Below are positions 1-29,573 of a stretch of DNA of 37,887 nt, piece by piece (the first letter of the stretch is position 1; each line of letters begins with the position of its first letter). The notes below the pieces were generated by a model, which did no database searches, was not told the origin of the DNA, and saw only the letters and a program-made list of their open reading frames with translations. The DNA comes from a virus (Duplodnaviria > Heunggongvirae > Uroviricota > Caudoviricetes): the IMG/VR virus record IMGVR_UViG_2875703104_000002. One strand, given 5' to 3'. Position numbers and translations under genes: made by a program.

Positions 1-498
1 ATGACAGGAAGTCAGGTCATTGATGCTGAAGAGGACAGGCATAAACTGGTTGTAGAGTACAAGGATGCTCTGCAACCTGCCGATTTTTATCACAATTTCA
101 AACAACGGGGTATCCGCTCCGTACAGCTTATTCCCCATCTTGAATTTGATGACCGGGGCGATCTGACGGCCGCTTCGGTGACAGCAGAGCTGTGGGGGAA
201 ATTTTTAATTGCCCTGTTCGAGTGTTGGGTACGGGCAGATATCAGTCGTATTTCGATTGAGCTTTTTGACGCCACCCTACAAAAATGGTGTGGCAGCGAA
301 AACCCGCAACCGCGTCGTGGCTGCCAGGCGTGCGACTGGCATCGCCTGTGCCCGCACGCTCGGGAGGAGACGCCAGACAACGTGCTTTGTGCGGGCTATC
401 AGGCGTTTTATTCTTACTCCGCGCCGCATATGCGGGTGATGCGTGATCTGATAAAGCAGCATCGTTCTCCCATGGAGCTGATGACGATGCTGCGGTGA
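1..498 (+). CDS. yidF: Host radical-SAM/SPASM-type maturase-like protein (YidF-like); ORF begins at window position 1 so the true start may lie upstream
   Basis: 165-aa ORF with Cys-rich C-terminal cluster (CQACDWHRLCPH...C) typical of anaerobic sulfatase-maturase SPASM domains; convergent with emrD as in E. coli K-12 (from memory, not searched). Confidence 0.5.
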   Translation: MTGSQVIDAEEDRHKLVVEYKDALQPADFYHNFKQRGIRSVQLIPHLEFDDRGDLTAASVTAELWGKFLIALFECWVRADISRISIELFDATLQKWCGSENPQPRRGCQACDWHRLCPHAREETPDNVLCAGYQAFYSYSAPHMRVMRDLIKQHRSPMELMTMLR

Positions 499-505
499 CG
501 TGAGC

Positions 506-1696
506 TTAAACAGGCTGCCCCTGATGCGACATCCGCGTCGCCAGCGGTAGCCAGCACAGCACGATCAACAATCCCATTAAGGTCATCAACAATCCCAGGC
601 TGCCCTGACCGGTTTGCGGCAACATCGCAGAGAGCGACGCCAGCACGCCGGAACCAATGTTTTGCAGACCGCCGACCAGCGCGCCAGCGGTGCCCGCCAG
701 GAAGGGGAACGGCTCCATCGCGCCGCTGGTAGCCAGTGGAAACAGCATCCCGGCACCGAAAAAGAACAGCGCGGCGGGAATGAGCAGCGTCCAGACATTC
801 ATCACGCCAAACCAGTCGGGGATCCACATCAGCAAGCCAGCCAGCAGGCAACAGATAACCGACTGCCACATCAACGTTGAGAAGCGCTTATTGGGACGTC
901 CGGCAAACCATGCGCCAAAAAATGCCGCCGGAATCGGCAGAATAAACAAAATACTGACCGTCATACTGCTCAGCCCTAACACCGCGCCCATCAGCACGCC
1001 GGAGCAGGCTTCAAATGCGGCAATCCCGGCCAGACCGCCAATCAGCATCAGCAAATAACAGTTAAAACCGCTGTTACCGAAAAGCGTTTTATAACTGGTA
1101 AGCAGGCGCGTGCGCGGTGCGTCGACCGGACGCGTTTCCGGCATCCAGCGGGCCATACTGAAAGTCACACCGGCACAAAGAACCAACAAAAAGAGATAAC
1201 AGGCACGCCAGTTCCACATCGTATCCAGCAGACCGCCGATTAGCGGTGCGAGCAGCGGACTGACAAGAATCCCCATGTTTAACAGGCTGTTAGCGTGGCG
1301 CAACTGTGTCCGTTCATATAAATCGCGCGGCAAAGTACGCGCCATTACGCCGCCAACGCCGGTGCCCATCCCCTGCATCGCGCTGGCGGCAATCAATACC
1401 ATCAAACTGGAGGTCGTGACCGCGACCAGCGTTGCCAGCATAAAAATGGACATTCCGACGAGGATCACCGGTCGGCGACCCACGCGGTCGGAAATCGGGC
1501 CATAAAACAGCTGTGAGACACCGTAAGTCAGCAGATAAGCGCCCATTACGCTCTGCACCGCCCCTTCACGGACATTGAGATCGCGCGCCATATCGGCAAT
1601 AGCTGGAATATAAATGGTTTGCGCCATCTGACCGACGGCCACGAGTAATACCAACATCAATAACAAATTGACGTTTCTATGCCTTTTCATTATCAC
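506..1696 (-). CDS. emrD: MFS multidrug efflux transporter EmrD
   Basis: 396-aa ORF, highly hydrophobic with multiple predicted TM helices; sequence recognised as E. coli EmrD (N-terminus MKRHRNVNLLLMLVLLVAVGQMAQTIYIPAIADMARDL). Confidence 0.9.
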   Translation of the reverse strand: MIMKRHRNVNLLLMLVLLVAVGQMAQTIYIPAIADMARDLNVREGAVQSVMGAYLLTYGVSQLFYGPISDRVGRRPVILVGMSIFMLATLVAVTTSSLMVLIAASAMQGMGTGVGGVMARTLPRDLYERTQLRHANSLLNMGILVSPLLAPLIGGLLDTMWNWRACYLFLLVLCAGVTFSMARWMPETRPVDAPRTRLLTSYKTLFGNSGFNCYLLMLIGGLAGIAAFEACSGVLMGAVLGLSSMTVSILFILPIPAAFFGAWFAGRPNKRFSTLMWQSVICCLLAGLLMWIPDWFGVMNVWTLLIPAALFFFGAGMLFPLATSGAMEPFPFLAGTAGALVGGLQNIGSGVLASLSAMLPQTGQGSLGLLMTLMGLLIVLCWLPLATRMSHQGQPV

Positions 1697-1856
1697 GGAT
1701 GCTTTTATAAAAATAATTAGAATAAGTCACTACGCATTCCCATAAATGCGGGAGAGGAATCTATCACATTGATGAATGTTAGCCAGATATACGCCAGGAA
1801 TGGGGAATTGTTTAGCGGCAGAATATGTAAACAAAAGCGGCAATAAATGTTGCCGG

Positions 1857-1906
1857 TGAAGCGGCGCACGAAAAACGCGAAAGCGTTTCACGATAAATGC
1901 GAAAAC
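1857..1906. mobile_element. attR: Mu right-end (attR) terminus with MuA-binding sites R1/R2; terminal dinucleotide 5'-TG at 1857-1858
   Basis: Sequence TGAAGCGGCGCACGAAAAACGCGAAAGCGTTTCACGATAAATGCGAAAAC matches the 50-bp Mu R-end used in MuA in vitro transposition (from memory); host DNA immediately to the left. Confidence 0.85.
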
Positions 1907-2930: not shown

Positions 2931-3062
2931 TGTTCGCTACGGCTGGGTATCATTTCCGACGAGAATAAACAAAAATTAACCGAGTGGATGCTCTATGCGC
3001 AGAAGGTCGAATATACAGACACCTCCAGCCTGCCAGTAACGTTTCCCGAACAACCAGAATGA
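2931..3062 (+). pseudogene. 3' remnant of an alternative tail-fibre assembly gene (U'-like), convergent with U; N-terminal part missing
   Basis: Plus-strand ORF ends ...LTEWMLYAQKVEYTDTSSLPVTFPEQPE, resembling the conserved C-terminal motif of tail-fibre assembly proteins (compare U C-terminus ...[26 protein letters not shown]); only about 44 codons of homology, upstream part runs into the mom GATC region. Confidence 0.5.
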
Positions 3063-3090: not shown

Positions 3091-3618
3091 TTACTCTGGT
3101 TTTTGTGGCCATTCTGGCTTTGCTGTATCCACACGGCTGACCAGAACGCTGTAGCGTTCCCAGGCTTCCAGTCGTGTGCGCTCCTCATCCGTCGCCATAT
3201 TCAGCCTGACAGCGCGTTCCAGCTGCTGGATGACTGATTCAGCTTCGGAAAGCAATGCGGCCTTTTGTAATTCGGCCTGCTGTTGCTGCTCGTCTGCCGT
3301 ATAAATCCGTTTAACCACAGCTCCGTCCTTAAACAGCCACTTTCCTGAATCGTCGGCGCGACGATTGGCGGTGATATCGGGAACTTCGACAACGCTGTAG
3401 CCTGTAGGGTCCAGTGTTGAAGCGTCTCTGGTTACGGCCACAATAATATTGTTCTCGTCGTAAAGAATTTTTATTGTGTCCGGCTGAAAGTTCTTCACTT
3501 CCTCATACCAGTTTTTTCCGTCTTCTGACCACAGCCAGGCAACATTAAAATTTTTTGTTAGCTGATATTGCTCAACGGTTTTTGGATTGCCGGCGACAAT
3601 GTTTTTTAAATGCTGCAT
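3091..3618 (-). CDS. Tail fibre assembly protein (U-like, Tfa family)
   Basis: 175-aa ORF directly downstream of the tail fibre gene; C-terminal Tfa motif W-x-x-Y-x-x-L-x-x-VDT-x-x-PEWP. Confidence 0.8.
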
Positions 3619-3621
3619 AAA

Positions 3622-6266
3622 TTACACCTGTGACACGTTGTACCACGTTCCGTTAATTAACTTTTGTATTGGTCTGAATACTGCCGGATCGTCGCCATCA
3701 ACTTCGCCGACAATGCCAAGCCCGGTAATTACATGGCCTGATTTCTCATACATCACGCCTTTTTGCATGGTCTGAACAACACGTGTGCCAAGTCGGACAT
3801 CCCTCACGTATCGGCCATCAAAATTGCCGTAATCCGAGGGGTTAACGCGCCCCGTAATATTTACGGTTTTATTACTCTGAATGCTGCCGGAAACAAAGCG
3901 CATAACATGGACGTTATTAGCATAAACATCCAGATTACCATCACCATTTTGTTTAAAGCCCGTGTCATTATCACCCAAAACAATCGAATTACCGCCAAGA
4001 GCACTGGATGTTCCTATACCCAGAGCACCATTCAATTGACCACCAGATAACGGCAGTGCACCGACATCTCCCGCTGTAGGTTTTCGCGTTGTGGTATAAA
4101 ACTCAGACCAGTCAGCCTCGAATCCGTAACCGTCACGAGCAGAACGATAAAAAATACCACCGTTCTTATAATTAACGCGAAACTGGGCGGCGGGACAACT
4201 TCCTTCACCGATATTAAAATGAAGAATTAACGTTGATGCCCCACCAATATTTGCGTTATAGGCTCCGCTACTCCAGTTCCATCCAACGGCTTTATCATTC
4301 GCAACGGTGTCTCCTGTTTTTCCTGAAGCAAATGCACCAATATTTTTCGGCGTCAGGTTAATATCTGATGTTCCATCAAACGAAACGTTATTAATTTTAT
4401 TCCTGAAGCAAATGCACCAATATTTTTCGGCGTCAGGTTAATATCTGATGTTCCATCAAACGAAACGTTATTAATTTTACGGGCTGTTTTCAGCTTTGTT
4501 GCTGTCGCCGCATTGCCGGACAGTTCACCAGAAAGGCCAGCACTGAATGCCTGTTTCGCGCCCCATGTCTGGGCTTCGTCAATGATTGGTACTCGTCTTG
4601 TTGTGATCGTGCGGCTTCCCGGATTTCCTGAAATGCGCACCATAAAAAAGCGGTAGTTGGCTTTACTTACAGTGCTGCGCCATACATGCATTGAGCGCCC
4701 CGTACCGGAATCATCACTCGGACCAACTGCGATGTTTATCAGGTTGCCATCAATGACGCCCCAGTCCATACCGTCGGGAATATTGGTCATATTATCCAGC
4801 CGAACGGTTATCAGACTGCCCGGCACAAAATCGTAGGTCTGCCAGTCCAGACTGGATAGTTTTGCCACTGCGCCACCGATGCCCAGATTCAGGGGAAGTG
4901 AATAAGATGTGTAAACTTCCCGCCATTCGCTCCATGAGCTGCCGGTAAAAACGCGCTCAAACGTGCGACCTTTAAGGGTTGTACCTGTTCCGGCAGTTGT
5001 ATAACGCTGCCATACGTTAACACCATCAAAGCGCCTCAACACTTCCAGAATACCGAGGACTGTCACGCCGTTTCCGTCCAGTATTGGACCGTTGGTTGCT
5101 TTACCTGTAACGCTGTAAATACCTGGTGAAGTCACATCATTCAAATCCCCGTCGTAATAACGACTCTCTGACTGATGACCGACTCTTAACCACGGTTCCC
5201 ACTGTGGGTTCTCTGCATTCCATGTAGCAGAAAGGCAGCGAACATATACGTTCCCACGGCGGGTCGTATAGCGTTGCGTGCGTGAGTACCCACCACCCTC
5301 AAGAACTTCAAGGAGTCCCTGACCATAACTTCCTTCTTCCGGATAGTTGCGGTCAAATGAAGCGATAGAGCCACTACTGTTTCGCCATAAACCAAGATGC
5401 TCTGCGCCTCCTAGCGTGTTCAGGTCAATAGCTGTGCTCAGGGGGCGTGTTGCAGACTGAATCTGACGCCAGTAGCTCCACGGACCGTCTGAGCCATTCC
5501 AGGTGCCAGAAAGATTACGCATATAAACATTGCCAGTTCTGGTGGTATAACGCTGCATTCCGGAAAAATTACCGCCATTGAAGACCTCAAGAACACCGAC
5601 TGCACCGTCTTCAGGGAAATTTTTCTCCAGTGTTGCGTTGGAGGATGTGGATTTATACCAGACACCCACATAAGCCTTAACTGGACCAAATGTATTGATA
5701 TCAGCATCAACCGGCATTTCGCCGTTGTTTTTCATAAACGTCAGGCTGGTAACGCCAACATTGTCCAGAAAAGCTGATTTATCCTGGATATCTGCACCAT
5801 TCTGATTTTTCGCCAGACGTGAATTTGCGTTGTCATTTGCTGCCTTGACCGCTTTTGGCGTTGCGGCGAGTGCTTCGGATGTGCTGTTGGTAGCACTACT
5901 TAGCTGAACCAGCCCCTTTTTGCTCACGCTGGCATCATAAATACCCAGATTTTCACGTGCTGTGCGCTGTGCTGATGCCCCGGCAGTTTTTATTTCGCTG
6001 AGGTTATTTTTTATCAGCAGCGCGTTCTTGTTCATGATGGCTTTAATGGACAGTGCAAGCTGGTTTAATTTTGTTTTATCCGGTTGAATACCGGCTTCTT
6101 CCAGCGTGTTTAATAACTCCGCCTGCACAATATTAAACCAGTCCATGCCGGGCCATGTGATAACATTATTCCCGTCACCTTCTGAAAACCAGCGAACGAT
6201 AGCACTACGCTGGGCGGATACGGGCGGCATGACGGTTACGCCGCTGTCGTTATCAATATAAAACAT
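3622..6266 (-). pseudogene. Tail fibre protein (S-like), frameshifted by an 80-bp tandem duplication: 637-aa N-terminal ORF 4353..6266 plus out-of-frame C-terminal continuation 3622..4320
   Basis: Hand translation shows minus-strand frame continuous from 4398 to 3622 with no stop; ORF1 and that frame encode the same peptide KINNVSFDGTSDINLTPKNIGAFASG across the two repeat copies; removing one copy fuses them into about 854 codons. Confidence 0.8.
4320..4479. repeat. Perfect 80-bp tandem direct duplication (copies 4320..4399 and 4400..4479) inside the tail fibre gene
   Basis: Both copies read TTCCTGAAGCAAATGCACCAATATTTTTCGGCGTCAGGTTAATATCTGATGTTCCATCAAACGAAACGTTATTAATTTTA; 80 is not a multiple of 3. 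Confidence 0.97.
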
Positions 6267-11520: not shown

Positions 11521-14007
11521 TTACCAACCTGTAATGTAGTTATCGCCCGCGTAAATATTCAGCCCCATACCATCCTCGGTGACGCGGGAACTGGTCAGAC
11601 GTAACCCCTCGCCGAGTTCGACGCGCAACGAGGCTTCCGCATTGACTTTTTGTTCCTGCGGTTCCTTATCCGTGGCCGTCCATTTCTGATACAGGTCGGT
11701 TACAAAACCGCCCAGATACTCCCCGGCGACACTGCCCAGCGTGGCACCGGCAACCGTACCCAGCGGTCCGGCAAGGCTGCCAACGGCACCGCCGAGCCAT
11801 GCACCGGCTGTACTGCCAATTGCGCCTGCTTTTTCATGGGTTGACGCCTGTTCATCCATCAGGACGGGGGCAAGCTGGAGTGCCCCCATTACCGGGCCAC
11901 CCAGACGTGACAGGGCACGACCGGCACCTTTCCCCATCCAGCCCAGCGCCCCGGCACCTTTTGTCACAACCCGACCGATCGCACTGCCTGCAAGTTTGTT
12001 TCCGATACCGGAAAACCACCCGCCAACGGCACGCCCGGCATCAGCCAGCTTTCCGACCGTTCCCGTAACCAGTTGCCCGGCAGCACTGCCTGCAAGCCTG
12101 CTCAGAAGACCGGATTTACCGGGCAAAGGCTGTGGCGCAGGGCGTGGTATTACCGGCACGCCCGGAGATGGCACGGGCTGCCTGTTTCCGGCACCGGAAA
12201 GCAGTCTGCTGACAGTACGCCCGGCATCCGCCAGCGTTCCTGCCGCTCCCGTAACCTGCTGCGCGGCAGCGCTGCCTGCCAGCTTGCCCGGAAGACCGGA
12301 TTTAGCGGGCAAAGGGCGTGGCGCGGGGCGTGGTATTACCGGCACGCCCGGAGATGGCGCGGGCTGCCTGTTTCCGGCACCGGAAAGCAGTCTGCTGACA
12401 GTACGCCCGGCATGCGCCAGCGTTCCTGCCGCTCCCGTCACCTGCTGCATGGCAGCGCTGCCTGCAAGCCTGCCCGGAAGACCGGATTTACCGGGTAAAG
12501 GTCGTGGCGCGGGGCGTGCTGCTGCCGGAACGCTGGGTGGGGGTAATGGTGCAGGCCGTGCTGTTACCGGTACGCCGGGTGGGGGTAATGCCAGTACAGG
12601 GCGTGGTGCAGGTAATGCCAGCGGCTGTGGCCCGGACAGCAATAACGGCTGGCGGGGTAACAGCGTGGGCATTCTTCCGCCGCTCCGTACGCGACGACCG
12701 CCGCCACTCCCGTAGCCACCAAATCCACGGGGCCAGTTGATGACAAACACACGCTGAATGCCGATACCCTGCAACAGCGTCTCAGACGTCATGGCATCCG
12801 GGACCGGCAGGCCTGCCTGCCCACGTTTGCGGTTTCGCATCCAGCGCCACATACGACGCCCGGTTTTAAACGGATAACTGGCAACCTGCCATGAGGGTTT
12901 TGCCACGGCCCAGCCTGCTCTCAGGGCTTTATTGGCAAGCCAGACAGACACCAGAACAGCAGCCAGTTTTTTCAGGCTGACAATATTCTGGTCAACCCAT
13001 GCCAGCGCATCTTTACCCGGTTTCAGCCAGCGCCATAATTCCTGCGCCGCGATTTTTACCGTTCTGAACGTGGTCAGAAATTTCTGACCAATGTTTTCTG
13101 CCAGTGCGTCAAGTTCCCCGGATTTATCCGCCATGTCGTGCCAGTTAAGCACCCGGCGCATCTCGTTCTTGATTTCTTCAAAGGGGCCGCTGTTTGCCAC
13201 CTTTATGCGAAATTCAAGCAGGTTGGCTTCCATCTGTGCGAACATCCCGTCCCAGGAGTTCATCGCACTGGCTTGTGCACCTTTTGACTGTTCTGACAGC
13301 GTTCTGAATACCGTCAGAATGGATTTCATGCCCAGCTTGCCCTTTGTACCCAGATCACGGATTTTTTTAACGTCCGTTCCCGTTGCATCCGCCAGCGCCT
13401 GATAAACATTGATACCGTAACCGGTCAGCAGGTTGGCATCCGCCGCCGTGATTTGCTGGCGGGCAAACATCTGTTTCAGTTGCAGTGAGGCACCCTGTGC
13501 AGTGGGTAAATCCCAGCCGTGCATGGCCCCCTGATCCTGCAACATGGTGATGAACTGTTTCGTCTGTTCATCCGTCATGCCGAAGCCTTTCGACGAACGG
13601 ATCTCATCCAGAACACCACTCAGCCCCCACGTGGTGTCCTTCGCGTTCTGCTTCGCCCAGGCCATCATAGCCTGCGCTCTGACCTTATCGCCGTGATACA
13701 GCGAGTTCATAGCGATGATCTGCTGCTCACGCTGGGCGGCTGCACCAATAAACAGTTTATTGGCGGTGTAACCCACGCCAGCGATACCCAGCGCCCCGGC
13801 TGACAGCATTCGGAATGTACGGGTTGACAGAGAACCCATTCTGTCAATTGCACCAGAAACGCGCACAACCTCCATACGCAGGGCTCGCAGGGAACTCTGC
13901 CCACTACGGGACAGGGCGTTTATCTGGCTCGAATACTGGCGGGAACGCCGGGAAAGATTGCCATTAAGATCAATAATGACAGACGCCTTTAAGCGTTTCC
14001 CGGTCAT
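11521..14007 (-). CDS. Tail tape measure protein
   Basis: 828-aa ORF between tail chaperone and baseplate genes; Gly/Ala-rich C-terminal region, Pro-rich linker and internal 62-aa tandem repeats. Confidence 0.85.
11959..12516. repeat. Three tandem 186-bp (62-codon) repeats inside the tape measure gene (12331..12516, 12145..12330, degenerate 11959..12144)
   Basis: Near-identical DNA units starting TGGTATTACCGGCACGCCCGGAGATGG at 12145 and 12331; encoded units RPAPRPLP(G/A)KSGLPG(R/K)LAGSAA...PSPGVPVIP. Confidence 0.85.
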
Positions 14008-14961: not shown

Positions 14962-16449
14962 TTACAGAATGAACTGAATTTGCGCCGCAAAAATGCGGAA
15001 CTGGTTGATCAGATTCGGGCCGCACAGCACATCAAGACGGTCTTTGTCATCGCTGTTACGTGCAACGTACAGCTCCTCTTTGAACGTGTCGAAATCCTCA
15101 ACCAGCCCGGAGCTTTCCCACTCTTCAAACAGTGCCAGCAGCTCCGTTTTGATCACGGATGGCGTCACCACGGGCTGACCGGTGGCAAAGCGGGTGCCGT
15201 CATTTGCCAGCTTGTAGTTCGGGAATTTCTGCGTGATGCGGGTTCGCAGCGAATAACGCAGATAACTCAGCGTGGCGATGGTATTCACGTTCAGATAAGA
15301 CGGATCACTGTCACCGTACTTGTTTGTGCGGTACATCGTGATCATGCGTTCAATCTGCATTTCACCACCATCATTCACGTTAAACGTGGAGATGCCGTCA
15401 AACAGCAGCGCATTACGTTCTGACCAGGTGAAACGCTCCCCCACCGCAGGCGGCATTCTTCCGGGTAACGTCAGCGTCTGGAGAGGACGCGCCGGGTCGA
15501 TGGAAAGCGCCTGGCTGGCAACGGCACACAGTGTGGCGGCGTACAGATATGACGGTTCCGGTGCACCGGCAATCCCCATACAGGAGATCAGATGGTCATT
15601 ACGACTGACACCAAACGTGGAAATATCCCCATACGTGCCGGACAGCACTGTCACGGCAAAGCCATCAGCCTGATTGACCGGTCCCCAGCGTTCCTGTAAT
15701 TCCGTGCGCAACAGATTCAGGTTCGCTTCATCGGTATAGGGCATCACAATATATTTGTATTGCAGATCGCCCATTCCCGCGATACTTGCGCTGATATCCG
15801 GGTTGCCATTTTTCCCGGAGGCGGCTTTGAATGCCGTGATAATCCCGTAAGGGGTGGTTTCACCCGCGTAATAGTTCCAGCGCACGTCCACGGCAGATAA
15901 TGCACCCGTAAATTTTGCACTCAGAACCACATCTGCATGGGTGTCATCATCTCCGCTGTCTGCGCGAACTTCTGCCGTCACCGGTAAATCAGGCTGGCCT
16001 TTGATTCGGGCAACCAGCAGGTCAGCCAGCGCAGCCCCTGTAGCACCTGCTGCGACAGATACCGTCAGTCGCTGACCGGCAATGTAAGTCACAAGCGAGC
16101 CGTTTTCGCCAGCCGTTCCTGACAGTGAAATTTCACCGACAGCAGCATTACCGGTGCCGTTCCCCTGCGGAATACACCACAGCTCCGCCACGCGGTTAGC
16201 GTTCAGGAATGCAGCTGCCATCAGTGCCAGCATGGAACCCTGACCAAACGCCGCACTGGCCTGTGAGCCGGAACGGATACGGACAGGCACGTTTGGTGCC
16301 GCACTGGCTTTACTTCCGCTTTGCCCGAACATCAGCACGCGCTGACGGGGTGCTGGTGTTCCGCTGACGGCATTACTGTTATCAAATTCGATATACGTCA
16401 GAGGAACGCGAACATCTGACGGGATCGCGTTAAATGAAATATCGCTCAT
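14962..16449 (-). CDS. Contractile tail sheath protein (Mu L/gp39-like)
   Basis: 495-aa ORF upstream of tube gene; size and position match Mu L. Confidence 0.85.
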
Positions 16450-16652
16450 TTCGATTTACTCCGTTTTTTCGGCGCAGCGTCGGTATCATCCGCCGTGTTT
16501 TCGGTGCTCCCGACTTCAACCACATCACCGGCTGCAAGGCGACGTATCCAGAAACTGTTACGGGGCTTTTCTTCTCCCTCCGGAGCCAGTAATTTCATCG
16601 TGAGCGGGTCACGGATGGCTTTTCCCGCTGCGGGTTTAATTTTCAGCATCAT
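16446..16652 (-). CDS. Small head-tail protein (Mu gp38-like)
   Basis: 68-aa ORF overlapping the sheath gene start. Confidence 0.5.
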
Positions 16653-17184
16653 GATCCTTTTCCTGATTCACATTGATATGTGCGGCAAATTCCGGGGTTT
16701 CGTCCGGGAATTTCCAGGTCTGCCAGTGACGCTCGTAATCATCCAGCGAATCCATGTCCACCACGGACGGCAGCGGGGTAGTGCCACTGAACAGAACGCC
16801 GTAAAGCACCACACCGGCATTGATACGGTTGTCGTCACAAAGATTTCTGACCTGCGTCAGTCTCATCCCGGTGGTCGGGCCAAACGTCTGACCGTTAACA
16901 CCGGCAATCAGTCGCTCCACAATCTGATAAATACCGGGCCGGTTTACCGGTTCCCCGTTCAGCAACTCCGCCACGACAAAAAATGCCCAGCGACTTTCAA
17001 CTTCCCGACGCGTACGCCCCTCACCACAGCCCATCCATGCCAGGAATACCGATGGCGGGGTCAGAAAGAGACGGTGCACATCCTCGTTAGTCCATGTGCC
17101 GGTAAGGGGTTCCACCTGCCGCAGGGTTGCCCCAAACAACTCACGAACGCGCGCCAGCAGTGCGGCTTCGGTTTCTTCCAGCAT
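16636..17184 (-). CDS. Head-tail connector/completion protein (Mu gp37-like)
   Basis: 182-aa ORF in the head-tail joining block. Confidence 0.6.
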   Translation of the reverse strand: MLEETEAALLARVRELFGATLRQVEPLTGTWTNEDVHRLFLTPPSVFLAWMGCGEGRTRREVESRWAFFVVAELLNGEPVNRPGIYQIVERLIAGVNGQTFGPTTGMRLTQVRNLCDDNRINAGVVLYGVLFSGTTPLPSVVDMDSLDDYERHWQTWKFPDETPEFAAHINVNQEKDHDAEN

Positions 17185-17609
17185 CAGATAAACCCCTTCT
17201 GTTTTCGTGAGAAGACCGGCGCGTCAGACTGCACCTGCACAAGGTTTTCACCATCCGGCGAGGCTGCCGTCCTGCTTTCCACGCCGGGATCTGTTTTGCC
17301 ATCGCGCACCTGTTCCAGCCAGCGCACCGTGTCCCTGTAAGTTGCGGTGATCTGCTCGGTGGGTTGTGATTCATTCAGATAAAACCAGGCCACCACGCAA
17401 CACTGCCGTTTCAGCAGTGAGGGGACGACGGTAAGCGGCAGAACAAAGCGCGCGGCGAGATAGCCATCAATAAAGGCCGAAGCATCTGCCAGTGCCTGTT
17501 CTGCCACGGCATCATCCGGCTGCCCGTCCGCTGTTTTAGGGCGGGTGAGAATATCCAGCCGCGTACGTGTATAGCGGGCGCACAGGTCATTTACCGTCGC
17601 GTAATTCAT
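17184..17609 (-). CDS. Head completion protein (Mu gp36-like)
   Basis: 141-aa ORF, coupled to neighbours. Confidence 0.6.
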   Translation of the reverse strand: MNYATVNDLCARYTRTRLDILTRPKTADGQPDDAVAEQALADASAFIDGYLAARFVLPLTVVPSLLKRQCCVVAWFYLNESQPTEQITATYRDTVRWLEQVRDGKTDPGVESRTAASPDGENLVQVQSDAPVFSRKQKGFI

Positions 17610-18016
17610 GCATCCGCCTCAGCCAGCGCCGCTTTGATTTGCGCACTGCTCACCGGTTCCCCCAGCGCCGCACTGACGGCTTTCACTTTGGGTTCTCCCC
17701 CTGCGGTAAAGTGCTCCGGGTTTGCCTTATCCAGACCGGCAACGGTCGCACGGATACGGGTATTCAGATCGCCCACACCCAGAACGTCCAGCCCCCCAGC
17801 CTCAGCGAGCGTTTCTGCTGACGATGCAGATACCACAGACAGCACGCTGTCGGCACGAATGATCGCCAGTTGTTCTTCGGTGACTTCCACGGTGTTTTCG
17901 CCACGTGTAAAGGCGATTCCGGCGCGGCGGTAGACCGGACGAAGGCATTTAATAATCGCCGTGCAAGTGATGCGAGAAGTGTCCAGCCGTTGTGAATTAA
18001 GCGAAGTGCCTGACAT
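17606..18016 (-). CDS. Head-associated protein (Mu gp35-like)
   Basis: 136-aa ORF after the capsid gene, preceded by strong SD AAGGAGGAG. Confidence 0.6.
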   Translation of the reverse strand: MSGTSLNSQRLDTSRITCTAIIKCLRPVYRRAGIAFTRGENTVEVTEEQLAIIRADSVLSVVSASSAETLAEAGGLDVLGVGDLNTRIRATVAGLDKANPEHFTAGGEPKVKAVSAALGEPVSSAQIKAALAEADA

Positions 18017-18050
18017 AACACATGCTCCTCCTTTTCCTTTAAATCAGGTT

Positions 18051-18074
18051 AAAAGGCGGTCTGAACCGCCTTTT
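18051..18074 (-). terminator. Hairpin (AAAAGGCGGT-tcag-ACCGCCTTTT) just downstream of the major capsid gene; probable partial terminator/attenuator
   Basis: Perfect 10-bp inverted repeat with 4-nt loop, A/U-rich flanks, 8 nt after the capsid stop codon. Confidence 0.45.
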
Positions 18075-18082
18075 AATGACGG

Positions 18083-19000
18083 TTACAGGTAGTCAGCGAC
18101 AACCAGTTGCAGCTTGCCCTTCATCTCGTTGGAGACGGTGGTATTGCCATCCGCGAACAGTTCACGGTTAAGCAGTTGCTCTGCGGCTTTTTCCAGCCCG
18201 ACCGGTACAACGATATGCGTCGGCTTCAGGCCCAGTTTCTTACCGCCATCACCTTCAAACGCACGCATCAGTTGCCAGCCTTTCCAGAGGTTATCCAGCG
18301 TCAGATCACCTTTTACCGCGACAGCCATCTGCCAGAAGCCGTAACCGGCAGCACGGCGGGCGCTGGCACCAAACAGGAACTCGTTATCCATAAAAACGTG
18401 GTCGTCATCGATACGGGTACGTGCGACCAGTTCCGGTTTGCGGCGCTCCTGGAAAATCAGCGGTTTGACTGCGCGGGAGCAGTCCAGCAGATAGAATGGC
18501 AGACCGCTGAAGCTGTCCTGCTCAACGATGTTGGAGGTATTAACCGCGCTGCCCGTGCCATCCACATTCGGATATACCGGATGCTCCTTGTCGAAGAAGT
18601 TCTGACCGTCATAGCAGGGCTGGGTAAAGCCATCTTTCAGAAGTTTAAAAATCAGTTCATCCGGCTGAACTGCCGCAGAACGGCCCATCTCCTGAAAAAT
18701 CGGCGCATAAATACCCAGATTGTCATCCTCGAAGTCATCACGGGAAATACCCACGGTGCCTTCAAACGTTTTATTGGCGATGGAGTAGCCATGCGCTTCC
18801 ATTTGCTGAATGGTTCGCTTACCCACCCATTCTTTCAGGGTCGGGAATTTACCCAGCCAGCCATAGGTATTACTGCGGGTGGAAGAGTTCACCACCATTG
18901 CAATTTTGCTGTACTGCGACGGGGCGTCTTCAAGACCGCCCTGAAAATCCTTACGGAAGGAGGTCATCAGGGCTTTAATGGATGCCGGGGTGACAATCAT
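18083..19000 (-). CDS. Major capsid protein (Mu T/gp34-like)
   Basis: 305-aa ORF downstream of the protease/scaffold gene with 4-bp overlap. Confidence 0.85.
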   Translation of the reverse strand: MIVTPASIKALMTSFRKDFQGGLEDAPSQYSKIAMVVNSSTRSNTYGWLGKFPTLKEWVGKRTIQQMEAHGYSIANKTFEGTVGISRDDFEDDNLGIYAPIFQEMGRSAAVQPDELIFKLLKDGFTQPCYDGQNFFDKEHPVYPNVDGTGSAVNTSNIVEQDSFSGLPFYLLDCSRAVKPLIFQERRKPELVARTRIDDDHVFMDNEFLFGASARRAAGYGFWQMAVAVKGDLTLDNLWKGWQLMRAFEGDGGKKLGLKPTHIVVPVGLEKAAEQLLNRELFADGNTTVSNEMKGKLQLVVADYL

Positions 19001-20082
19001 TTTTCTTGTTCCTGTTTCATTTTCAGATACTCAGCCTCTGTAATGCCGAGCGCCTTCACTGCTGCCTGTTCATCAGCAGACAGCACCGCCACCGCCGTTT
19101 TTTCCTGCGACGGGATTTTCGCCGTGGTGGTCTGCATGGCAGATAACGCAGCGATGGGCTGTTTTTTCTCAAGCTGTGCCGACAGTGCCGCCACGCCAAT
19201 CTGACCGCCAAGCTGTTCCAGATAGGTACGTTCGCTTTTGAAAATGCGGCCTTCCTGCTCCGCCTTGTCCAGAACGGCGCTCAGGCTGGCAGTGGCGCTT
19301 TGTGCTTTGGCCTGTGCCAGTTCATCAAGCACGGCGTTGTAGCTTTCCACCGGGACGTATTTCGTCAGGTCAACGGCGGCGTTCTGTGCCTTTTCCAGTT
19401 CGGCGGATAACGACGCCACTTTTCCGGCATCTGTTTCGAGCGCATCAAACGCACTCAGGGCCGCGCTGGCCTGTTCATCGGTGATGTCTGCATTTTCGGG
19501 GACCGTCACCCCAAGACGCGCAAGCAGCTTGCGCAGCGTTTCATTCATGGGTTTGTTCTCCTGTTGAAGGATGTCGGGAAGGTCTGCCGCCAGTGCGGTC
19601 AGCTTTTTCATGCCGGTGGCACCGGGGTCATTGGTCAGCGCAGCAAGGCGGATTTGCAGCACCGCACCGGTGGCGGTGTCATACGGAAAAACCGCAGAGA
19701 GATAACCAAATTCGCCGTCATCGATGCGCTGCTGTGCCGCCGCCGTCCAGCGTGGGTGGATAAATAATCCTTCACCTTCACGCCACTGCATTTCATCGGC
19801 GTTAAACCAGCCAGCCGCGACGAGTTGTTCCGGGGGTAATCCTTTGTCCTTACGTAGCTGGTTATGCTCGTAATCAATCAGCACGTCCTGGTTGAGCGCG
19901 CGAACGCCTTCAACCAGACGCCCGGCAATCTCACCGTCAATGAACCACCCCTGACCGCCTGTCACATCAAACGGACGACCATCACGGGCACTGAAATGAC
20001 CGGCAGGCAATAGCTGGCACCAGCCGTCATCGTCAATGGACAGCGCACTCAGTGCGGCAATGCCAATCGCGTGTTTTTTCAT
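18997..20082 (-). CDS. Head maturation protease/scaffold (Mu I/gp32-like)
   Basis: 361-aa ORF; Ala/Glu/Gln-rich coiled-coil-like C-terminal half consistent with a scaffold domain. Confidence 0.8.
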   Translation of the reverse strand: MKKHAIGIAALSALSIDDDGWCQLLPAGHFSARDGRPFDVTGGQGWFIDGEIAGRLVEGVRALNQDVLIDYEHNQLRKDKGLPPEQLVAAGWFNADEMQWREGEGLFIHPRWTAAAQQRIDDGEFGYLSAVFPYDTATGAVLQIRLAALTNDPGATGMKKLTALAADLPDILQQENKPMNETLRKLLARLGVTVPENADITDEQASAALSAFDALETDAGKVASLSAELEKAQNAAVDLTKYVPVESYNAVLDELAQAKAQSATASLSAVLDKAEQEGRIFKSERTYLEQLGGQIGVAALSAQLEKKQPIAALSAMQTTTAKIPSQEKTAVAVLSADEQAAVKALGITEAEYLKMKQEQEK

Positions 20083-20279
20083 GTCCTGCTGCTCATCATG
20101 GTTTGTGAGCAGTCAGTTTGCGGGAGGTGCGGGAAAATCTGGGGTTATGCTATTTGAGTAATGGAGAAAGAAAGTGAAAGGAAGATAAAACGGGATTCAT
20201 ACACCGTTAAATACCGGTTTAAAAATCCCGTGGCGCGTTTTAAAAAATCTGTGCGGCTGATTTTATTACCTGATTCTGT
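20083..20279. promoter_or_regulatory. G-I intergenic region: expected site of the C-dependent late promoter P_I and of the central strong gyrase site
   Basis: 197-bp non-coding gap near the centre of the prophage (about 18-19 kb from the inferred left end); assignment by position from Mu biology, motifs not verified. Confidence 0.4.
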
Positions 20280-20750
20280 TTATTGCCTCAGAGCGGCGCT
20301 GACGCGTTTTCTGATGGCATCAAAAATTTCCTGTTCCCCGGTCTTATCCAGCCCCATATAAGGACGCGCAGGAACGCCTGCCGGGCGGGGTGCCATATCG
20401 GGTGTACCGCCCCACTGATGAATGGCAGCATAAATTTTTGGCGAACCAATCAGGGCATAATCCTGTCCATAATCGGTGGTAATGCTGCGTGCCAGATCGC
20501 CATGCAGGGTAAGGATACTGCCCGGAACAAAACCATGATCCTGACGCCATGCCAGCCACGAATCGCTCCACGCTTCCCAGCCTTTCCCTGTATCCGGGTC
20601 TGCCTGCCGTTCAAATGCCTGTTCCGTGGATGACAGCAGCGCCGCAGCTATCACACGGGGAATGACGCGGTCACGTGTGGCGGTTCCCAGTTCATCCAGC
20701 GCAAGCTGAATACGTCGCACATCCACGGCAACGTTCATATCAAGACTCAC
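20280..20750 (-). CDS. Virion morphogenesis protein (Mu G/gp31-like)
   Basis: 156-aa ORF, 4-bp overlap with upstream F-like gene. Confidence 0.7.
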   Translation of the reverse strand: MSLDMNVAVDVRRIQLALDELGTATRDRVIPRVIAAALLSSTEQAFERQADPDTGKGWEAWSDSWLAWRQDHGFVPGSILTLHGDLARSITTDYGQDYALIGSPKIYAAIHQWGGTPDMAPRPAGVPARPYMGLDKTGEQEIFDAIRKRVSAALRQ

Positions 20751-22102
20751 TTATTCACCTCCACATGCCCCTCCAGTATGTCAATCATCCCGTCAGCAAT
20801 CGCGGCTTCAAGCGACTGTGCAGATACGCGGCTGATACTGACCAGCACATCCGCCCGGTCATTCTGTTTGCTGACAGCCTGCGATGTTCTGACCACAACT
20901 TTTGCAGTGCCGTCGCGGGTTGCCACAACATACAGCAACTGGTGGTTCTCCCTGTCCCACAATACCGCCTGTGGTTTTGCCATCAGTGACGGCAGACGCT
21001 GTAAATCCTCCGGTTTCAGGGCGGCATCAGCAGTGGTCGCCAGACTTTTTCCGTTCATCACAAGCAGACGGGCTGGCATATTCCCGGTGCACTGATATAC
21101 GGCCTCCGCCACGGCTTCCGTCATAAACCCCAGCGCACGGACCTCATGTCCGGCCCGGCGTGATTTCGCCAGACGTTTAAGCCAGAGGGAAAAAGCAAGC
21201 TGACGCTCCCGGCTGTTATTCAGCGTCTGAACAACCTGCTCACGCAGCTGCGCGTCACGAACTTCCACCAGTTTTCGAATCAGTGCCTGATCCGTACCAA
21301 ATGCCGCCGAACCGGGGTTATATGACCAGCCCACATCCGGCGTCATTTTTACCCGACCGTTGTCAAACGTGGTTGACGATGTGCGGAAAATCTCTCCAGT
21401 GCTTTCATCCGTACCGGCATCCACTTCGCGGGTATTCATGAATGACGCACCATAACTGACCTGTAGCCCCAGTTCTTTCATGCGGGCCGCAGACAGCGCC
21501 CGGACGCGACAGCGGCAGTTCCAGCCATTGGGCGGGTAATGCGTTTGCCAGAAAATGTCGTCATACCGGAAAACCATATTATGCAGCCGCGCATGTTCCG
21601 GGCGTGTTCTGCCATCCATAACGGCAACGTACTGCCAGTACGGGTACAAATCGGCGGTATTCATCATCTGCGCATAACGTCCCGCCCCGTACGCCGTACG
21701 GGTATTGACGTTATAAATGGTTGCCAGACGACGCGGACTGCCCAGCTCGATTACCTTTGCGTTTCCGTCTGCATCCACGATGATTTGTTTTCCCCACCAT
21801 CCGAGTTTTTGCAGCCGTGGGGCCAGTGTGCGGGTAAATTCCTCACGGGTGATGCCTTCACTGACAGCCCGCTCCACTTCCTCACGGATAGTGGTCAGTA
21901 CATCCATCCGGGTGGCTTTGGCAACGGTAAAGGCGCGGGCGTGCGCGTCTGCCAGTTGTTCGTACCAGTTCCAGGTGATGTTGTAGCCTTTGGCGCGGAA
22001 ATACGCGACAGCCTCCTTTGGCGGGAGGCGTGCGGCATACGCCAGATCAATGGTCTGCTGCGGCATCCAGACGCCCCCATATATCGGCAACAAAAATGGC
22101 AC
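20747..22102 (-). CDS. Minor head protein (Mu F/gp30-like); start may be internal (alternative ATG near 22066)
   Basis: 451-aa ORF downstream of portal gene. Confidence 0.75.
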   Translation of the reverse strand: MPFLLPIYGGVWMPQQTIDLAYAARLPPKEAVAYFRAKGYNITWNWYEQLADAHARAFTVAKATRMDVLTTIREEVERAVSEGITREEFTRTLAPRLQKLGWWGKQIIVDADGNAKVIELGSPRRLATIYNVNTRTAYGAGRYAQMMNTADLYPYWQYVAVMDGRTRPEHARLHNMVFRYDDIFWQTHYPPNGWNCRCRVRALSAARMKELGLQVSYGASFMNTREVDAGTDESTGEIFRTSSTTFDNGRVKMTPDVGWSYNPGSAAFGTDQALIRKLVEVRDAQLREQVVQTLNNSRERQLAFSLWLKRLAKSRRAGHEVRALGFMTEAVAEAVYQCTGNMPARLLVMNGKSLATTADAALKPEDLQRLPSLMAKPQAVLWDRENHQLLYVVATRDGTAKVVVRTSQAVSKQNDRADVLVSISRVSAQSLEAAIADGMIDILEGHVEVNK

Positions 22103-23585
22103 GGGTCAGCATGTCGATAAGTTCTGCATCATCCATCTGCGGATATAATGAAGCGGCTTTGTTCATGGCGGCTTCCGGGCCATCTTTCAGCACAGAAAAA
22201 ATGACGGGTTTCAGCAGGGGATCAACCGAACGCTGCCAGTCTTCCGGTGAGACGCCCATCCGGTCGATATCATCCTCCTGCGGGATATCTTCAGCGGATA
22301 ATGCAGCCTCTTTCTGCGGACCGTTATCCATGACGACCGGTTGAGCAGTAAACACGGCTTCATCACCGACCGGCTGCGGAATATGGAGTTTTTCCTGTAT
22401 CCAGGAGACGGGAATACGCATTCCCGCCGCCAGTTTCGGAATGGCGTCAGACAGTGCCGTAATATCACCCGCTTCGCTGGTATCAAATACAATGCCCGGC
22501 AGGCGGTTAATATCAATGGTGCTGTCACTGTTCAGTGCCAGCAGGGGATAAATCAGGTCACGGTTAATACTGCGGGCAAGCTGGCCCACATCCGCGTTAC
22601 GGATTTCCCGGCGAACCTCATCATGCACTTCACCCAGCGACCGTGCACCTTTATCGCCAGCCTCTGTGGTCAGGGTGCCGCCCAGAATGGCTTTTGAAAT
22701 CGCTTTTTCTGCCCAGCCAATCATCGCCATAAAGGGGTCTGACTGACCATCTGCAGCGCTCTGAAAATCCAGCGTCATCCCCATCGGAATAATGCCACCG
22801 GCACGTCGCCCGATATCCATCACAGCCTGCATCAGCGTGGCTTTCTCACGGTTCGTGGAGCCGGTCGGATATTTACCGACGCGCATGGGAAGTCCGTAAA
22901 TTTCCAGGAACTCTGCAAAATCACGCACGGAATAGTTTTTAAAAATAAAAGGCCAGATAAGCGTGCGCACAAGGCCATTGGTGCCGACATATCCGGTGCG
23001 GGATTTGGCCCGGTGCATAAACCAGCCGAACGGTTGCAGCTCCAGCCCGTGATAAGACGCATCACGCAGGCGTAATTCGTTCAGATTGTCGGGGTTCGCG
23101 CAGAACAGCGCCGGATCGCGATGATGCAGCGCCACCGGCACGCGCATTTTCCCCAGCCACCCCCATTCAATCTCCTGCATGGAATAGCCCTTGAGAATGG
23201 CATCACCGGCATCAAACAGGGCATCTTCAAACCACGCCGCATCATGCAGATATTCATTCAGCATGTCGGCGTCTTTTTTCTCCTGTGCGCTGGCATCACG
23301 TGCCGGAGCGATGCGCCATTCCAGCGCCTGAATGGCAAGGCGGCGCTTGCTCAGTTCGGAAAAAAGGTGGGTGTCCTTTTCTTCCATATCAAAGGCCAGG
23401 TCAGCCTGTGCGGTCAAATCACCGCGTTCGGCATCACGCAGCATCTGCGCGGCCCGGTTCGGCGTCACACCACTGGAAGGATGCTCCTGCGTGCGCTTCA
23501 TGACCATTGCCAGCTCATCGCTGCGGGTCTGCATTTCATCGTCAAAATCAAACGGCTGCCCGGAAATATCCAGAATACGGCCCAT
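22047..23585 (-). CDS. Portal protein (Mu H/gp29-like)
   Basis: 512-aa ORF directly downstream of large terminase with overlapping stop/start. Confidence 0.8.
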   Translation of the reverse strand: MGRILDISGQPFDFDDEMQTRSDELAMVMKRTQEHPSSGVTPNRAAQMLRDAERGDLTAQADLAFDMEEKDTHLFSELSKRRLAIQALEWRIAPARDASAQEKKDADMLNEYLHDAAWFEDALFDAGDAILKGYSMQEIEWGWLGKMRVPVALHHRDPALFCANPDNLNELRLRDASYHGLELQPFGWFMHRAKSRTGYVGTNGLVRTLIWPFIFKNYSVRDFAEFLEIYGLPMRVGKYPTGSTNREKATLMQAVMDIGRRAGGIIPMGMTLDFQSAADGQSDPFMAMIGWAEKAISKAILGGTLTTEAGDKGARSLGEVHDEVRREIRNADVGQLARSINRDLIYPLLALNSDSTIDINRLPGIVFDTSEAGDITALSDAIPKLAAGMRIPVSWIQEKLHIPQPVGDEAVFTAQPVVMDNGPQKEAALSAEDIPQEDDIDRMGVSPEDWQRSVDPLLKPVIFSVLKDGPEAAMNKAASLYPQMDDAELIDMLTRAIFVADIWGRLDAAADH

Positions 23586-25306: not shown

Positions 25307-25793
25307 GTCACCAAAAGCAATAAAACTACTTGAAATATTTTGTGAAACAGAATTAAAGCAATCTATGGATACTGTTCAATTTGTCTCAATAAACGGATGG
25401 GAAACACTTCAGCGCCTTTGGCCCCTGAATGAACGATTCACACCACGCATAGAGCAAATCAGAACGATTAGCTACAGAAAGCAATTTGAAAAAGCCGCAG
25501 ATAACGCCATTGAGGATTTTCTGATGAAGGATGATGACTGGTCAGAAATTCCATTAGTTGTCTGGCGTGTTCTTCTGGAACGCCATAATCAAGCAACGAT
25601 TCTCTGCGTAACTAATGCACTCGCCAATAACACCGAACTTATGCACATCCCTGTCGGACTTTCTCAGTCGGCACAAACAAAATTTGCAGTAGCTTATTTG
25701 TATTACGCAATGAAGCTCCCATATAAAGTGCTCGGTGAATCACAGCTTGACATTGAATCACCGTTTGAGTATCTGAACACCCGGCTACAGTAA
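25305..25793 (+). CDS. Hypothetical protein (162 aa), reverse-oriented accessory gene between terminase subunit genes; function unknown
   Basis: Only plus-strand ORF in a non-coding gap of the minus-strand late operon; SD GAGGGA 6 nt upstream of ATG; strongly AT-rich (first 60 nt about 27% GC); followed by hairpin terminator; no TM segments or catalytic motifs recognised. Confidence 0.75.
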   Translation: MSPKAIKLLEIFCETELKQSMDTVQFVSINGWETLQRLWPLNERFTPRIEQIRTISYRKQFEKAADNAIEDFLMKDDDWSEIPLVVWRVLLERHNQATILCVTNALANNTELMHIPVGLSQSAQTKFAVAYLYYAMKLPYKVLGESQLDIESPFEYLNTRLQ

Positions 25794-25806
25794 AAGCCTT
25801 TCGATG

Positions 25807-25839
25807 GGCGCTGATTAGCAGCGCCTTGTAATCATTTTT
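25807..25839 (+). terminator. Rho-independent-like terminator (GGCGCTG-attag-CAGCGCC then TTGTAATCATTTTT) downstream of the plus-strand gene
   Basis: 7-bp perfect stem, 5-nt loop, T-rich tail, 14 bp after the stop codon. Confidence 0.5.
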
Positions 25840-25852
25840 CATAACGTAACTC

Positions 25853-26443: not shown

Positions 26444-26730
26444 GCACGGGGACGAGGACGCTTGACACCGGTAACGCGGGCACGACCTTCTGCCACATCC
26501 TGACCACGGGAGGTCAGCGTTACGACATAAAAGCCGCGCAGGTTTTCCACGGTGACCAGTTGCTGCTCTGCCAGCCAGTCAATCTGGCCGCGAACCACAT
26601 CGCGGGAAACGTTGTGTCCGTATGCATCCAGACAGTCCTGAAGGATGGACTCGTTTGCTTCGTTATTGCAGTCCATCAGGGAACGCAGGATGACCAGACG
26701 ACGGTCTTCGGTCAGAATATCGTTAATCAT
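26440..26730 (-). CDS. Hypothetical protein (Mu gp26-like)
   Basis: 96-aa ORF, coupled to neighbours in the late operon. Confidence 0.55.
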   Translation of the reverse strand: MINDILTEDRRLVILRSLMDCNNEANESILQDCLDAYGHNVSRDVVRGQIDWLAEQQLVTVENLRGFYVVTLTSRGQDVAEGRARVTGVKRPRPRA

Positions 26731-28267: not shown

Positions 28268-28337
28268 GCTTCCCTGAAAAAATGCTCTGATGGCAGTCTA
28301 AAAAATCAGATGGCAGGTGCGGGATTATGGTGACAGG
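28268..28337 (-). promoter_or_regulatory. Late promoter region upstream of lys (expected C-dependent Plys)
   Basis: 70-bp gap between the C-gene terminator hairpin and the lys start; assignment by position. Confidence 0.4.
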
Positions 28338-28781: not shown

Positions 28782-28793
28782 ATTTTCCCCCGG

Positions 28794-28913: not shown

Positions 28914-28922
28914 GGTGCCCCT

Positions 28923-29568: not shown

Positions 29569-29573
29569 ACTGT

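What the first reader, a model, noticed from the sequence alone, without database searches (positions are those of the whole stretch)
4320..4479. Perfect 80-bp tandem duplication frameshifts the tail fibre gene
Two identical 80-bp copies sit head to tail inside the tail fibre gene. Because 80 is not a multiple of 3, the 637-codon N-terminal ORF (4353..6266) terminates 15 codons into the second frame. Hand translation shows the downstream frame is open from 4398 to 3622 and encodes the same junction peptide (KINNVSFDGTSDINLTPKNIGAFASG). Precise loss of one copy would restore an uninterrupted fibre of about 854 codons. As sequenced, the fibre lacks its distal (receptor-binding) part, so virions would be adsorption-defective. 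Tandem duplications revert at high frequency, so this could act as a reversible ON/OFF switch for infectivity, or it is a recent inactivating lesion or an assembly artefact.
Basis: seen in the sequence. Interest (0 to 1): 0.7.

Follow-up and report, generated by a model that had tools for sequence, protein, structure and literature searches.

The report
Private 80-bp duplication breaks Mu-like fibre gene
A perfect 80-bp tandem duplication, seen only in this one E. coli assembly, frameshifts the tail-fibre gene of an otherwise intact Mu-like prophage, so it is an ordinary fresh knockout mutation or an assembly error, not an evolved infectivity switch.

Summary
Window 4320..4479 holds two identical head-to-tail 80-bp copies inside a minus-strand tail-fibre gene. 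The ORF 4353..6266 stops 15 codons after the junction. Removing one copy gives an 854-aa fibre.

The window is a complete Mu-like prophage in E. coli ST1193 chromosome CP035330.1, inserted between emrD and ivbL with a 5-bp target duplication. All other Mu genes are full length.

The restored 854-aa fibre is identical, residue for residue, to a protein found on 75 other contigs. Ten of those places carry the same prophage at ten different chromosomal sites. Eight of them differ from the window by 1 SNP in 14,330 bp once the extra copy is removed.

The two-copy junction was found nowhere else: 0 of 5,426 complete E. coli genomes, and 0 in phage, viral, metagenome and species-representative collections. 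The duplication is therefore derived, private and very recent.

It also lies in a 187-bp stretch shared exactly with P2-like fibre genes, where draft assemblies often break. An assembly artefact therefore stays a strong rival (about 40%).

Reversion by loss of one copy is expected. Nothing supports an evolved ON/OFF switch. Interest is low.

The parts
4400..4479 (-). Copy 1 of the 80-bp unit (first in gene direction). It is read in the native frame as (R)KINNVSFDGTSDINLTPKNIGAFASG.
4320..4399 (-). Copy 2 of the 80-bp unit (second in gene direction). It is read out of frame by the upstream ORF (IKLITFRLMEHQILT, then stop). In its native frame it continues into the distal fibre.
4353..6266 (-). 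Truncated fibre ORF of 637 aa (RefSeq WP_250188905.1, known from this one contig only). Residues 1-172 match the constant part of Mu S (87%). The rest is P2 H-like.
3622..4437 (-). Orphaned distal reading frame of 271 open codons. It encodes fibre residues 597-854 from position 4398. It has no start codon before the TTG at 4035.
4395..4398 (-). A-AAA run just after the junction. A -1 slip of tRNA-Lys here would restore the distal frame and give a fibre with 27 extra residues. This is theoretical only. It is not a canonical heptamer and is not conserved as a frameshift site.
   Evidence: sequence; the rest is inference
3091..3618 (-). Tail fibre assembly chaperone (Mu U / P2 G type), 175 aa, intact.
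   Evidence: Pfam PF02413 E=7.6e-36; 87% identical to Mu U
2936..3059 (+). Remnant of the inverted chaperone gene U' (last 42-46 codons). At 2936 it is fused to the last 36 nt of gin. This is the deletion that froze the former invertible G segment.
   Evidence: the same layout is annotated in E. coli 1290
1852..1883 (.). 5-bp target duplication GCCGG (1852..1856) followed by the Mu right end starting TGAAGCGGCGCACG at 1857. The matching left end ...TCAATACA|GCCGG lies 339 bp beyond the window end.

Best explanation
This is a derived, strain-private and very recent 80-bp tandem duplication. It knocks out gene S, the tail fibre gene, of an otherwise intact and recently acquired Mu-like prophage. 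It is an ordinary spontaneous loss-of-function mutation.

Shown:
- The extra 80 nt (27 codons minus 1 nt) shift the frame.
- Translation ends 15 codons later.
- The distal 232 residues (623-854) are not made from this ORF.
- The distal frame has no start codon of its own.

Inferred:
- That distal part carries the receptor-binding tip and the site where the Tfa chaperone binds to drive trimerisation. Induced particles would therefore lack working fibres and fail to adsorb.
- The prophage can still replicate by transposition and lyse the cell.
- Two perfect adjacent 80-bp copies are a good substrate for RecA-independent template switching. Precise loss of one copy would therefore restore the wild-type gene in a small fraction of genome copies.
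- Forward formation, with no flanking microhomology, is rare. This makes it a revertible lesion and not a two-way switch.
For: - Anatomy of the duplication and frameshift.
- It is the only lesion. tblastn finds every Mu protein other than S, S', U' and Gin as one full-length match, or at its full length where the gene is diverged or expanded.
- The prophage is complete, with Mu ends and a GCCGG target duplication.
- It is derived. The restored protein is identical to P0001, which lies on 75 contigs.
- Ten such places (L004-L013) carry the same prophage at ten different chromosomal sites with a single-copy 854-aa gene.
- With one copy removed, the window aligns without gaps over 14,330 bp. It shows 1 mismatch to 8 of the 10.
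- Window 15305..35793 is 100.000% identical over 20,489 bp to L024.
- It is private. The 637-aa product is on one contig only.
- The junction 60-mer has 0 matches in 5,426 complete E. coli genomes and 50,697 phage records. The restored 140-mer is found in 199 genomes.
- The junction 40-mer is absent from the genome, viral and metagenome collections.
- The insertion site is empty in the best-matching complete genomes listed, which cover only query 1..1856, up to the prophage end. This points to recent lysogeny.
- About 35 kb compared with relatives shows no indels. The local sequence is therefore not noisy.
- Literature: 101-bp tandem repeats are deleted at high frequency without RecA (PMC8378479).
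- Literature: Mu Tfa binds the distal fibre to ensure assembly and trimerisation (PMC9608196).
Against: - There is no read-level evidence. Everything rests on one assembly.
- The duplication has zero junction microhomology. That is less typical of slippage-born duplications and is what an untrimmed contig overlap would produce.
- It lies inside a 187-bp block shared exactly with the P2-like fibre gene of another ST1193 strain.
- Draft assemblies of relatives break at fibre residues 593, 604 and 633, next to the unit at 597-622. A random real mutation would hit such paralogous sequence only about 3-7% of the time (my estimate from the block lengths).
- The assembly is absent from the RefSeq complete-genome set used here, for unknown reasons.
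Confidence: 0.55

Rival explanations
1. Assembly or finishing artefact. The genome really has one copy. The extra 80 bp arose when two contigs that overlapped in this repeat-rich stretch were joined without trimming, or when local reassembly or polishing went wrong because reads from the co-resident P2-like fibre gene were mis-mapped.
For: - The copies are perfectly identical and the junction has 0 nt of microhomology, as expected for an untrimmed overlap.
- The unit lies within a 187-bp exact block (restored coordinates 4283..4469) shared with the P2-like prophage fibre of ST1193 strain MDBZ1340. The source strain is ST1193.
- Contig-truncated relatives end at fibre residues 593, 604 and 633, so short-read assemblies do break here.
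- The allele exists in one assembly only.
- The assembly is not in the RefSeq complete-genome collection.
Against: - The ends of the unit (4320, 4399) do not coincide with the ends of the exact block in any of the six paralogues compared. The simplest 'shared node written twice' model is therefore not met.
- About 35 kb of the prophage is free of indels against relatives.
- No other perfect tandem duplication turned up in about 18 kb of flanking chromosome from the same assembly.
- 80 nt is not an overlap length that any assembler known to have been used here would produce. The assembly method is not visible with these tools.
Confidence: 0.4
2. Evolved or exploited reversible switch. The duplication is real and serves as an OFF state of infectivity. 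It flips back to ON by precise deletion, in the manner of pneumococcal cap3A capsule phase variation.
For: - The frameshifting tandem duplication sits inside an ORF.
- Tandem repeats of about 100 bp delete at high frequency (PMC8378479).
- A precedent exists for duplication-based ON/OFF switching (Waite 2001, as cited in PMC11163986).
- Mu makes many genome copies per lytic cycle (my own knowledge), which gives many chances for reversion.
Against: - There is no recurrence. 0 of 199 E. coli genomes carrying this sequence have two copies. There are 0 in phages, viral contigs and metagenomes.
- The intact allele is on 75 contigs and the broken one on 1.
- No flanking direct repeats exist to promote re-duplication, so the ON-to-OFF step would be rare.
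- The ancestral host-range switch of this locus, G inversion by Gin, has been deleted.
Confidence: 0.04
3. Leaky expression. A -1 ribosomal slip on A-AAA (4398..4395), directly after the junction, produces some full-length fibre with a 27-residue repeat insertion, so the phage keeps low infectivity without reversion.
For: The sequence allows perfect re-pairing of tRNA-Lys in the -1 frame, which is the distal frame. An in-frame repeat of this conserved motif might be tolerated, since such motifs recur in fibres (inference).
Against: - The site has only four A's and is not an X XXY YYZ heptamer.
- No stimulatory element was examined, and none is expected in a sequence that is a fresh accident.
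- Relatives have no frameshift to conserve.
- The expected efficiency is very low, and the fibre must trimerise from full-length chains.
Confidence: 0.01

Closest known systems
Spontaneous short tandem-duplication frameshift (ordinary pseudogenising mutation in a prophage gene)
   Same: - A perfect head-to-tail copy whose length is not a multiple of 3.
- A premature stop.
- The only difference from otherwise identical relatives.
- Revertible by precise loss of one copy.
   Different: Nothing of substance. The only unusual points are the lack of junction microhomology and the position inside a stretch shared with a paralogous fibre gene.
Pneumococcal capsule phase variation by tandem duplication in cap3A / wchA (Waite et al. 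2001, 2003, as cited in PMC11163986 and PMC4022640)
   Same: The OFF state is a tandem duplication inside the ORF. The ON state is precise reversion.
   Different: In the pneumococcal case, duplications arise repeatedly and reversibly within cultures. Here there is a single occurrence in one assembly, no recurrence in relatives and no population data.
Mu G-segment inversion by Gin (host-range switch of the same locus in phage Mu)
   Same: It is the same gene position. Mu's constant S N-terminus is retained (residues 1-172, 87%). The chaperone U lies downstream, and a U' remnant is present.
   Different: There is no gin, no S'v and no right gix, because Mu 33658..35637 is deleted. The variable part is P2 H-like. 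The 80-bp repeat is direct and tandem, not inverted.
Untrimmed contig-overlap or repeat-induced misassembly
   Same: Perfect identity, no microhomology, location in an inter-paralogue exact repeat where assemblies break, and uniqueness to one assembly.
   Different: The unit ends do not match the repeat-block ends in the paralogues tested. The rest of the locus is clean.

Membership tests
Tandem-duplication phase variation (cap3A type) | A duplication inside the ORF abolishes the product. | tested here: met
   80-bp x2 repeat, frameshift, stop after 15 codons.
Tandem-duplication phase variation (cap3A type) | The OFF alleles arise recurrently (independent duplications in different isolates or cultures). 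| tested here: not met
   The junction is absent from 5,426 E. coli genomes, 50,697 phages and the viral, metagenome and species-representative contigs. The single-copy form is in 199 genomes. The 637-aa product is on 1 contig, against 75 contigs for the intact protein.
Tandem-duplication phase variation (cap3A type) | Precise reversion at measurable frequency, and mixed ON/OFF populations. | not testable with these tools
   This needs reads, PCR or plaque assays. Only the general instability of 101-bp tandem repeats is documented (PMC8378479).
Mu G-segment / Gin invertible switch | An adjacent serine invertase gene (gin). | tested here: not met
   tblastn with Mu Gin gives no match in the window. 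Only the last 36 nt of gin remain.
Mu G-segment / Gin invertible switch | Two alternative Sv-U gene sets in opposite orientation, bounded by inverted gix sites. | tested here: not met
   Only 42-46 codons of U' remain. S'v and the right gix lie in the deleted interval Mu 33658..35637.
Programmed -1 ribosomal frameshift | The two-frame arrangement is conserved in relatives. | tested here: not met
   All relatives have one continuous 854-aa ORF.
Programmed -1 ribosomal frameshift | A slippery X XXY YYZ heptamer in the overlap. | tested here: not met
   Only A-AAA is present at 4398..4395.
Muvirus (transposable Mu-like prophage) | Transposase A and B genes, Mu-type ends and a 5-bp target duplication. 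| tested here: met
   A is 93% and B 99% identical to Mu. The right end is TGAAGCGGCG... at 1857, the left end is ...TCAATACA, and both are flanked by GCCGG. Identity to Mu and D108 is 97-98% over 23.7 kb.
Myovirus tail fibre with Tfa chaperone (Mu S/U, P2 H/G type) | Fibre repeat motif, and a Caudo_TAP chaperone gene immediately downstream. | tested here: met
   PF03406 E=3.2e-19 in the fibre and PF02413 E=7.6e-36 in the 175-aa downstream ORF. Identity to P2-like H/G genes is 88-94% at the DNA level.

The most novel reading that the evidence does not exclude
The duplication is real, and the lysogen carries a 'standby' phage. Induction yields mostly fibre-defective particles. Precise loss of one 80-bp copy during Mu's many rounds of replicative transposition regenerates a small infectious fraction in every burst. 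The lesion would then act as a population-level throttle on infectivity and not as a dead end.
Probability: 0.04. Interest if true: 0.4.

Novelty: already known. Interest (0 to 1): 0.12.

Why it matters
It matters little beyond this one genome.

If the duplication is real, it shows a prophage at the very first step of decay. A circulating Mu-like phage has been disabled by a single, still revertible, mutation shortly after lysogenising an ST1193 strain.

If it is an artefact, it is a caution. Fibre genes shared between co-resident prophages are places where 'complete' assemblies can carry perfect small duplications that annotation pipelines then turn into truncated proteins. Here that protein is WP_250188905.1, known from one genome only.

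Neither reading opens a new question.

Tried and rejected
1. 'The unit is the exact stretch shared with a co-resident paralogue, written twice.' I compared the restored region with five P2-like fibre genes, including an ST1193 strain, and with the Mu-like prophage of strain 1290. The unit lies inside long exact blocks (187-219 bp), but its ends never coincide with mismatches. The hypothesis is not supported, though the source strain's own paralogue could not be read.

2. The private SNP as a sign of read mixing. Window 12414 lies in the 186-bp repeat array of the tape-measure gene. However, its base is not that of the neighbouring repeat unit, so it says nothing about an artefact.

3. Other perfect tandem duplications in the same assembly. 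None were found in about 18 kb of host flank. This is too little sequence to be decisive, and I could not walk further along CP035330.1.

4. Look-up with the portal protein to find sister prophages. It returned other Mu-like phages and was of no use. The orphan 162-aa ORF worked instead.

5. Protein-level census of the new C-terminal tail. A 41-aa query found no candidates, which is a limit of the tool. A 151-aa query returned 14 short partial proteins, and none carries the IKLITFRLMEHQILT tail. This search had low power.

6. Literature search for the accession. It gave only the strain's sequence type and country, not the assembly method.

7. Independent translation of the distal frame. I rejected this because no start codon occurs before the TTG at 4035.

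Full report
**Observation**

Window 4320..4479 contains two identical 80-bp copies placed head to tail. Tandem Repeats Finder gives period 80, 2.0 copies, 100% matches and score 320 (sequence). Identity does not extend by even one base beyond either end, so the junction has no microhomology.

The gene runs on the minus strand. The ORF 4353..6266 encodes 637 aa. After the junction it reads 15 new residues, IKLITFRLMEHQILT, and then stops.

The distal frame re-encodes KINNVSFDGTSDINLTPKNIGAFASG from 4398 and continues to 3622. It is open back to a TAA at 4438..4440. It has no start codon before a TTG at 4035.

Deleting one copy in silico gives one ORF of exactly 854 aa.

**Context**

The window is a Mu-like prophage in reverse orientation. 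It is 97-98% identical to Mu and D108 over 23.7 kb.

tblastn with all Mu proteins finds each gene as one full-length match, or at its full length where the gene is diverged or expanded. The exceptions are S, S', U' and Gin.

The Mu right end starts at 1857, next to emrD. The left end lies 339 bp beyond the window, next to ivbL. Both ends are flanked by GCCGG, the 5-bp target duplication of a simple Mu insertion.

The source is E. coli chromosome CP035330.1, assembly GCA_004116855.1. A paper describes it as an ST1193 strain from Brazil (PMC11888992). It is not in the RefSeq complete-genome set available here.

The best-matching complete E. coli genomes listed match only up to 1856, so the site is empty in them. 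This points to recent lysogeny.

**The fibre locus**

- Residues 1-172 match the constant part of Mu S at 87%.
- The rest of the fibre, and the chaperone gene at 3091..3618, are P2 H/G-like, at 88-94% DNA identity.
- Mu coordinates 33658..35637 are deleted, with the joint at window 2936. This interval covers most of U', all of S'v, the right gix site and nearly all of gin.
- The former invertible G segment is therefore frozen. Relatives share this layout.

**Is the two-copy state ancestral, conserved or private?**

The restored 854-aa protein is identical to database protein P0001, which is found on 75 contigs.

Ten places were fetched (L004-L013). They carry the same prophage at ten different chromosomal sites, each with a continuous 854-aa fibre gene.

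With one copy removed, the window aligns without gaps over 14,330 bp, from the sheath gene to the Mu right end. It shows one mismatch to eight of the ten. That mismatch is a private SNP at window 12414.

Window 15305..35793 is 100.000% identical over 20,489 bp to another such prophage.

By contrast, the 637-aa product is known from this contig alone.

| Query | Collection | Result |
|---|---|---|
| 60-mer across the junction | 5,426 complete E. coli genomes | 0 matches |
| 60-mer across the junction | 50,697 phage records | 0 matches |
| Restored single-copy 140-mer | complete E. coli genomes | 199 genomes |
| Junction 40-mer | species-representative genomes | absent |
| Junction 40-mer | viral contigs | absent |
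| Junction 40-mer | JGI metagenomes | absent |

The 40 listed E. coli rows, and all 11 phage relatives with at least 80% coverage, align in two pieces. Where I checked the spans, they are exactly 80 nt shorter than the query.

The duplication is therefore derived, private and extremely recent. It is the only lesion in a phage that is otherwise circulating actively.

**Consequence**

As sequenced, residues 623-854 are not made. In Mu-type fibres the Tfa chaperone binds the distal part to ensure assembly and trimerisation, and it contributes to receptor recognition (PMC9608196). I infer that the truncated product would give no working fibre, so particles would not adsorb. Replication and lysis functions are intact.

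A -1 slip on A-AAA at 4398..4395 would in principle restore the frame. However, it is not a canonical site, and nothing suggests it is used.

**Switch or accident?**

Perfect tandem repeats of about 100 bp are lost at high frequency in E. coli by RecA-independent template switching (PMC8378479). Revertants are therefore expected if the duplication is real.

A switch also needs a frequent forward step, and some sign that the state recurs or is maintained. There are no flanking repeats, no second occurrence anywhere, and no conservation of the split arrangement.

The known precedent is pneumococcal cap3A/wchA phase variation (PMC11163986 and PMC4022640). It is defined by recurrent duplication and reversion within cultures, and that feature is not met here. 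I rate the switch reading at about 4%.

**Real or artefact?**

This cannot be settled without reads.

For an artefact:
- The copies are perfectly identical, with zero microhomology.
- The unit lies inside a 187-bp block shared exactly with the P2-like fibre gene of another ST1193 strain.
- Contig-truncated relatives end at fibre residues 593, 604 and 633, right beside the unit at 597-622. This is a spot where assemblies break.
- A random real mutation would fall in such paralogous sequence only about 3-7% of the time. This is my estimate from the block lengths.

Against an artefact:
- The unit ends do not coincide with block ends in any of six paralogues.
- About 35 kb of the prophage has no indel against relatives.
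- No other perfect tandem duplication was seen in about 18 kb of flanking chromosome.

I put a real mutation at about 55% and an artefact at about 40%.

**Verdict**

This is a known, ordinary kind of event, and its interest is low.

Noticed in passing
window 2936..3062 and 5788..6266; Mu (L003) 33658..35637: The invertible G segment of Mu is frozen here. A 1,980-bp deletion relative to Mu removes most of U', all of S'v, the right gix site and nearly all of gin. It leaves a 42-46 codon U' remnant on the + strand. The variable part of S is replaced by a P2 H-like sequence behind Mu's constant N-terminus. Sister prophages share this layout.
   Followed up: partly
L004-L013; L024: Essentially the same phage clone (0-2 SNPs in 14.3 kb, and 0 in 20.5 kb) sits at ten or more different chromosomal sites in different E. 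coli assemblies. It therefore looks like an actively spreading Mu-like phage with a non-invertible fibre.
   Followed up: partly
window 12031..12518 (tape-measure gene 11521..14007, minus strand): There is a 186-bp tandem repeat array (2.6 copies, 91% matches) inside the tape-measure gene. Relatives have tape-measure proteins of 828, 766, 690 and 681 aa. Tail length may therefore vary by repeat number.
   Followed up: partly
window 12414: This is the only base substitution separating the window from eight sister prophages over 14.3 kb. It lies in the tape-measure repeat array but is not copied from the neighbouring unit.
   Followed up: yes
window 25305..25793 (+ strand): A 162-aa ORF lies antisense between the gp27 and gp28 (terminase) genes and is absent from Mu. 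The exact protein occurs in 486 blocks of the assembly collection. It has no PHROG match and only a chance-level PADLOC match. It may be a moron of unknown function.
   Followed up: partly
window 36959..37171 and 37363..37887: The repressor c is only 30% identical to Mu c, and Ner is 49% identical, while the transposase is 93% identical. The phage therefore has a different immunity type from Mu.
   Followed up: no
proteins P0124, P0128, P0130, P0132, P0133: Many draft assemblies end contigs inside this fibre gene, at residues 593-711. This fits exact repeats shared with P2-like fibre genes in the same cell, and it is a general annotation hazard for fibre genes.
   Followed up: partly
L031 7857..10525 (GCA_900449075.1): This is a Mu-like remnant in which the repressor gene and a 283-aa stump of the transposase are joined directly to com-mom. 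It is an internally deleted prophage that keeps both ends.
   Followed up: no
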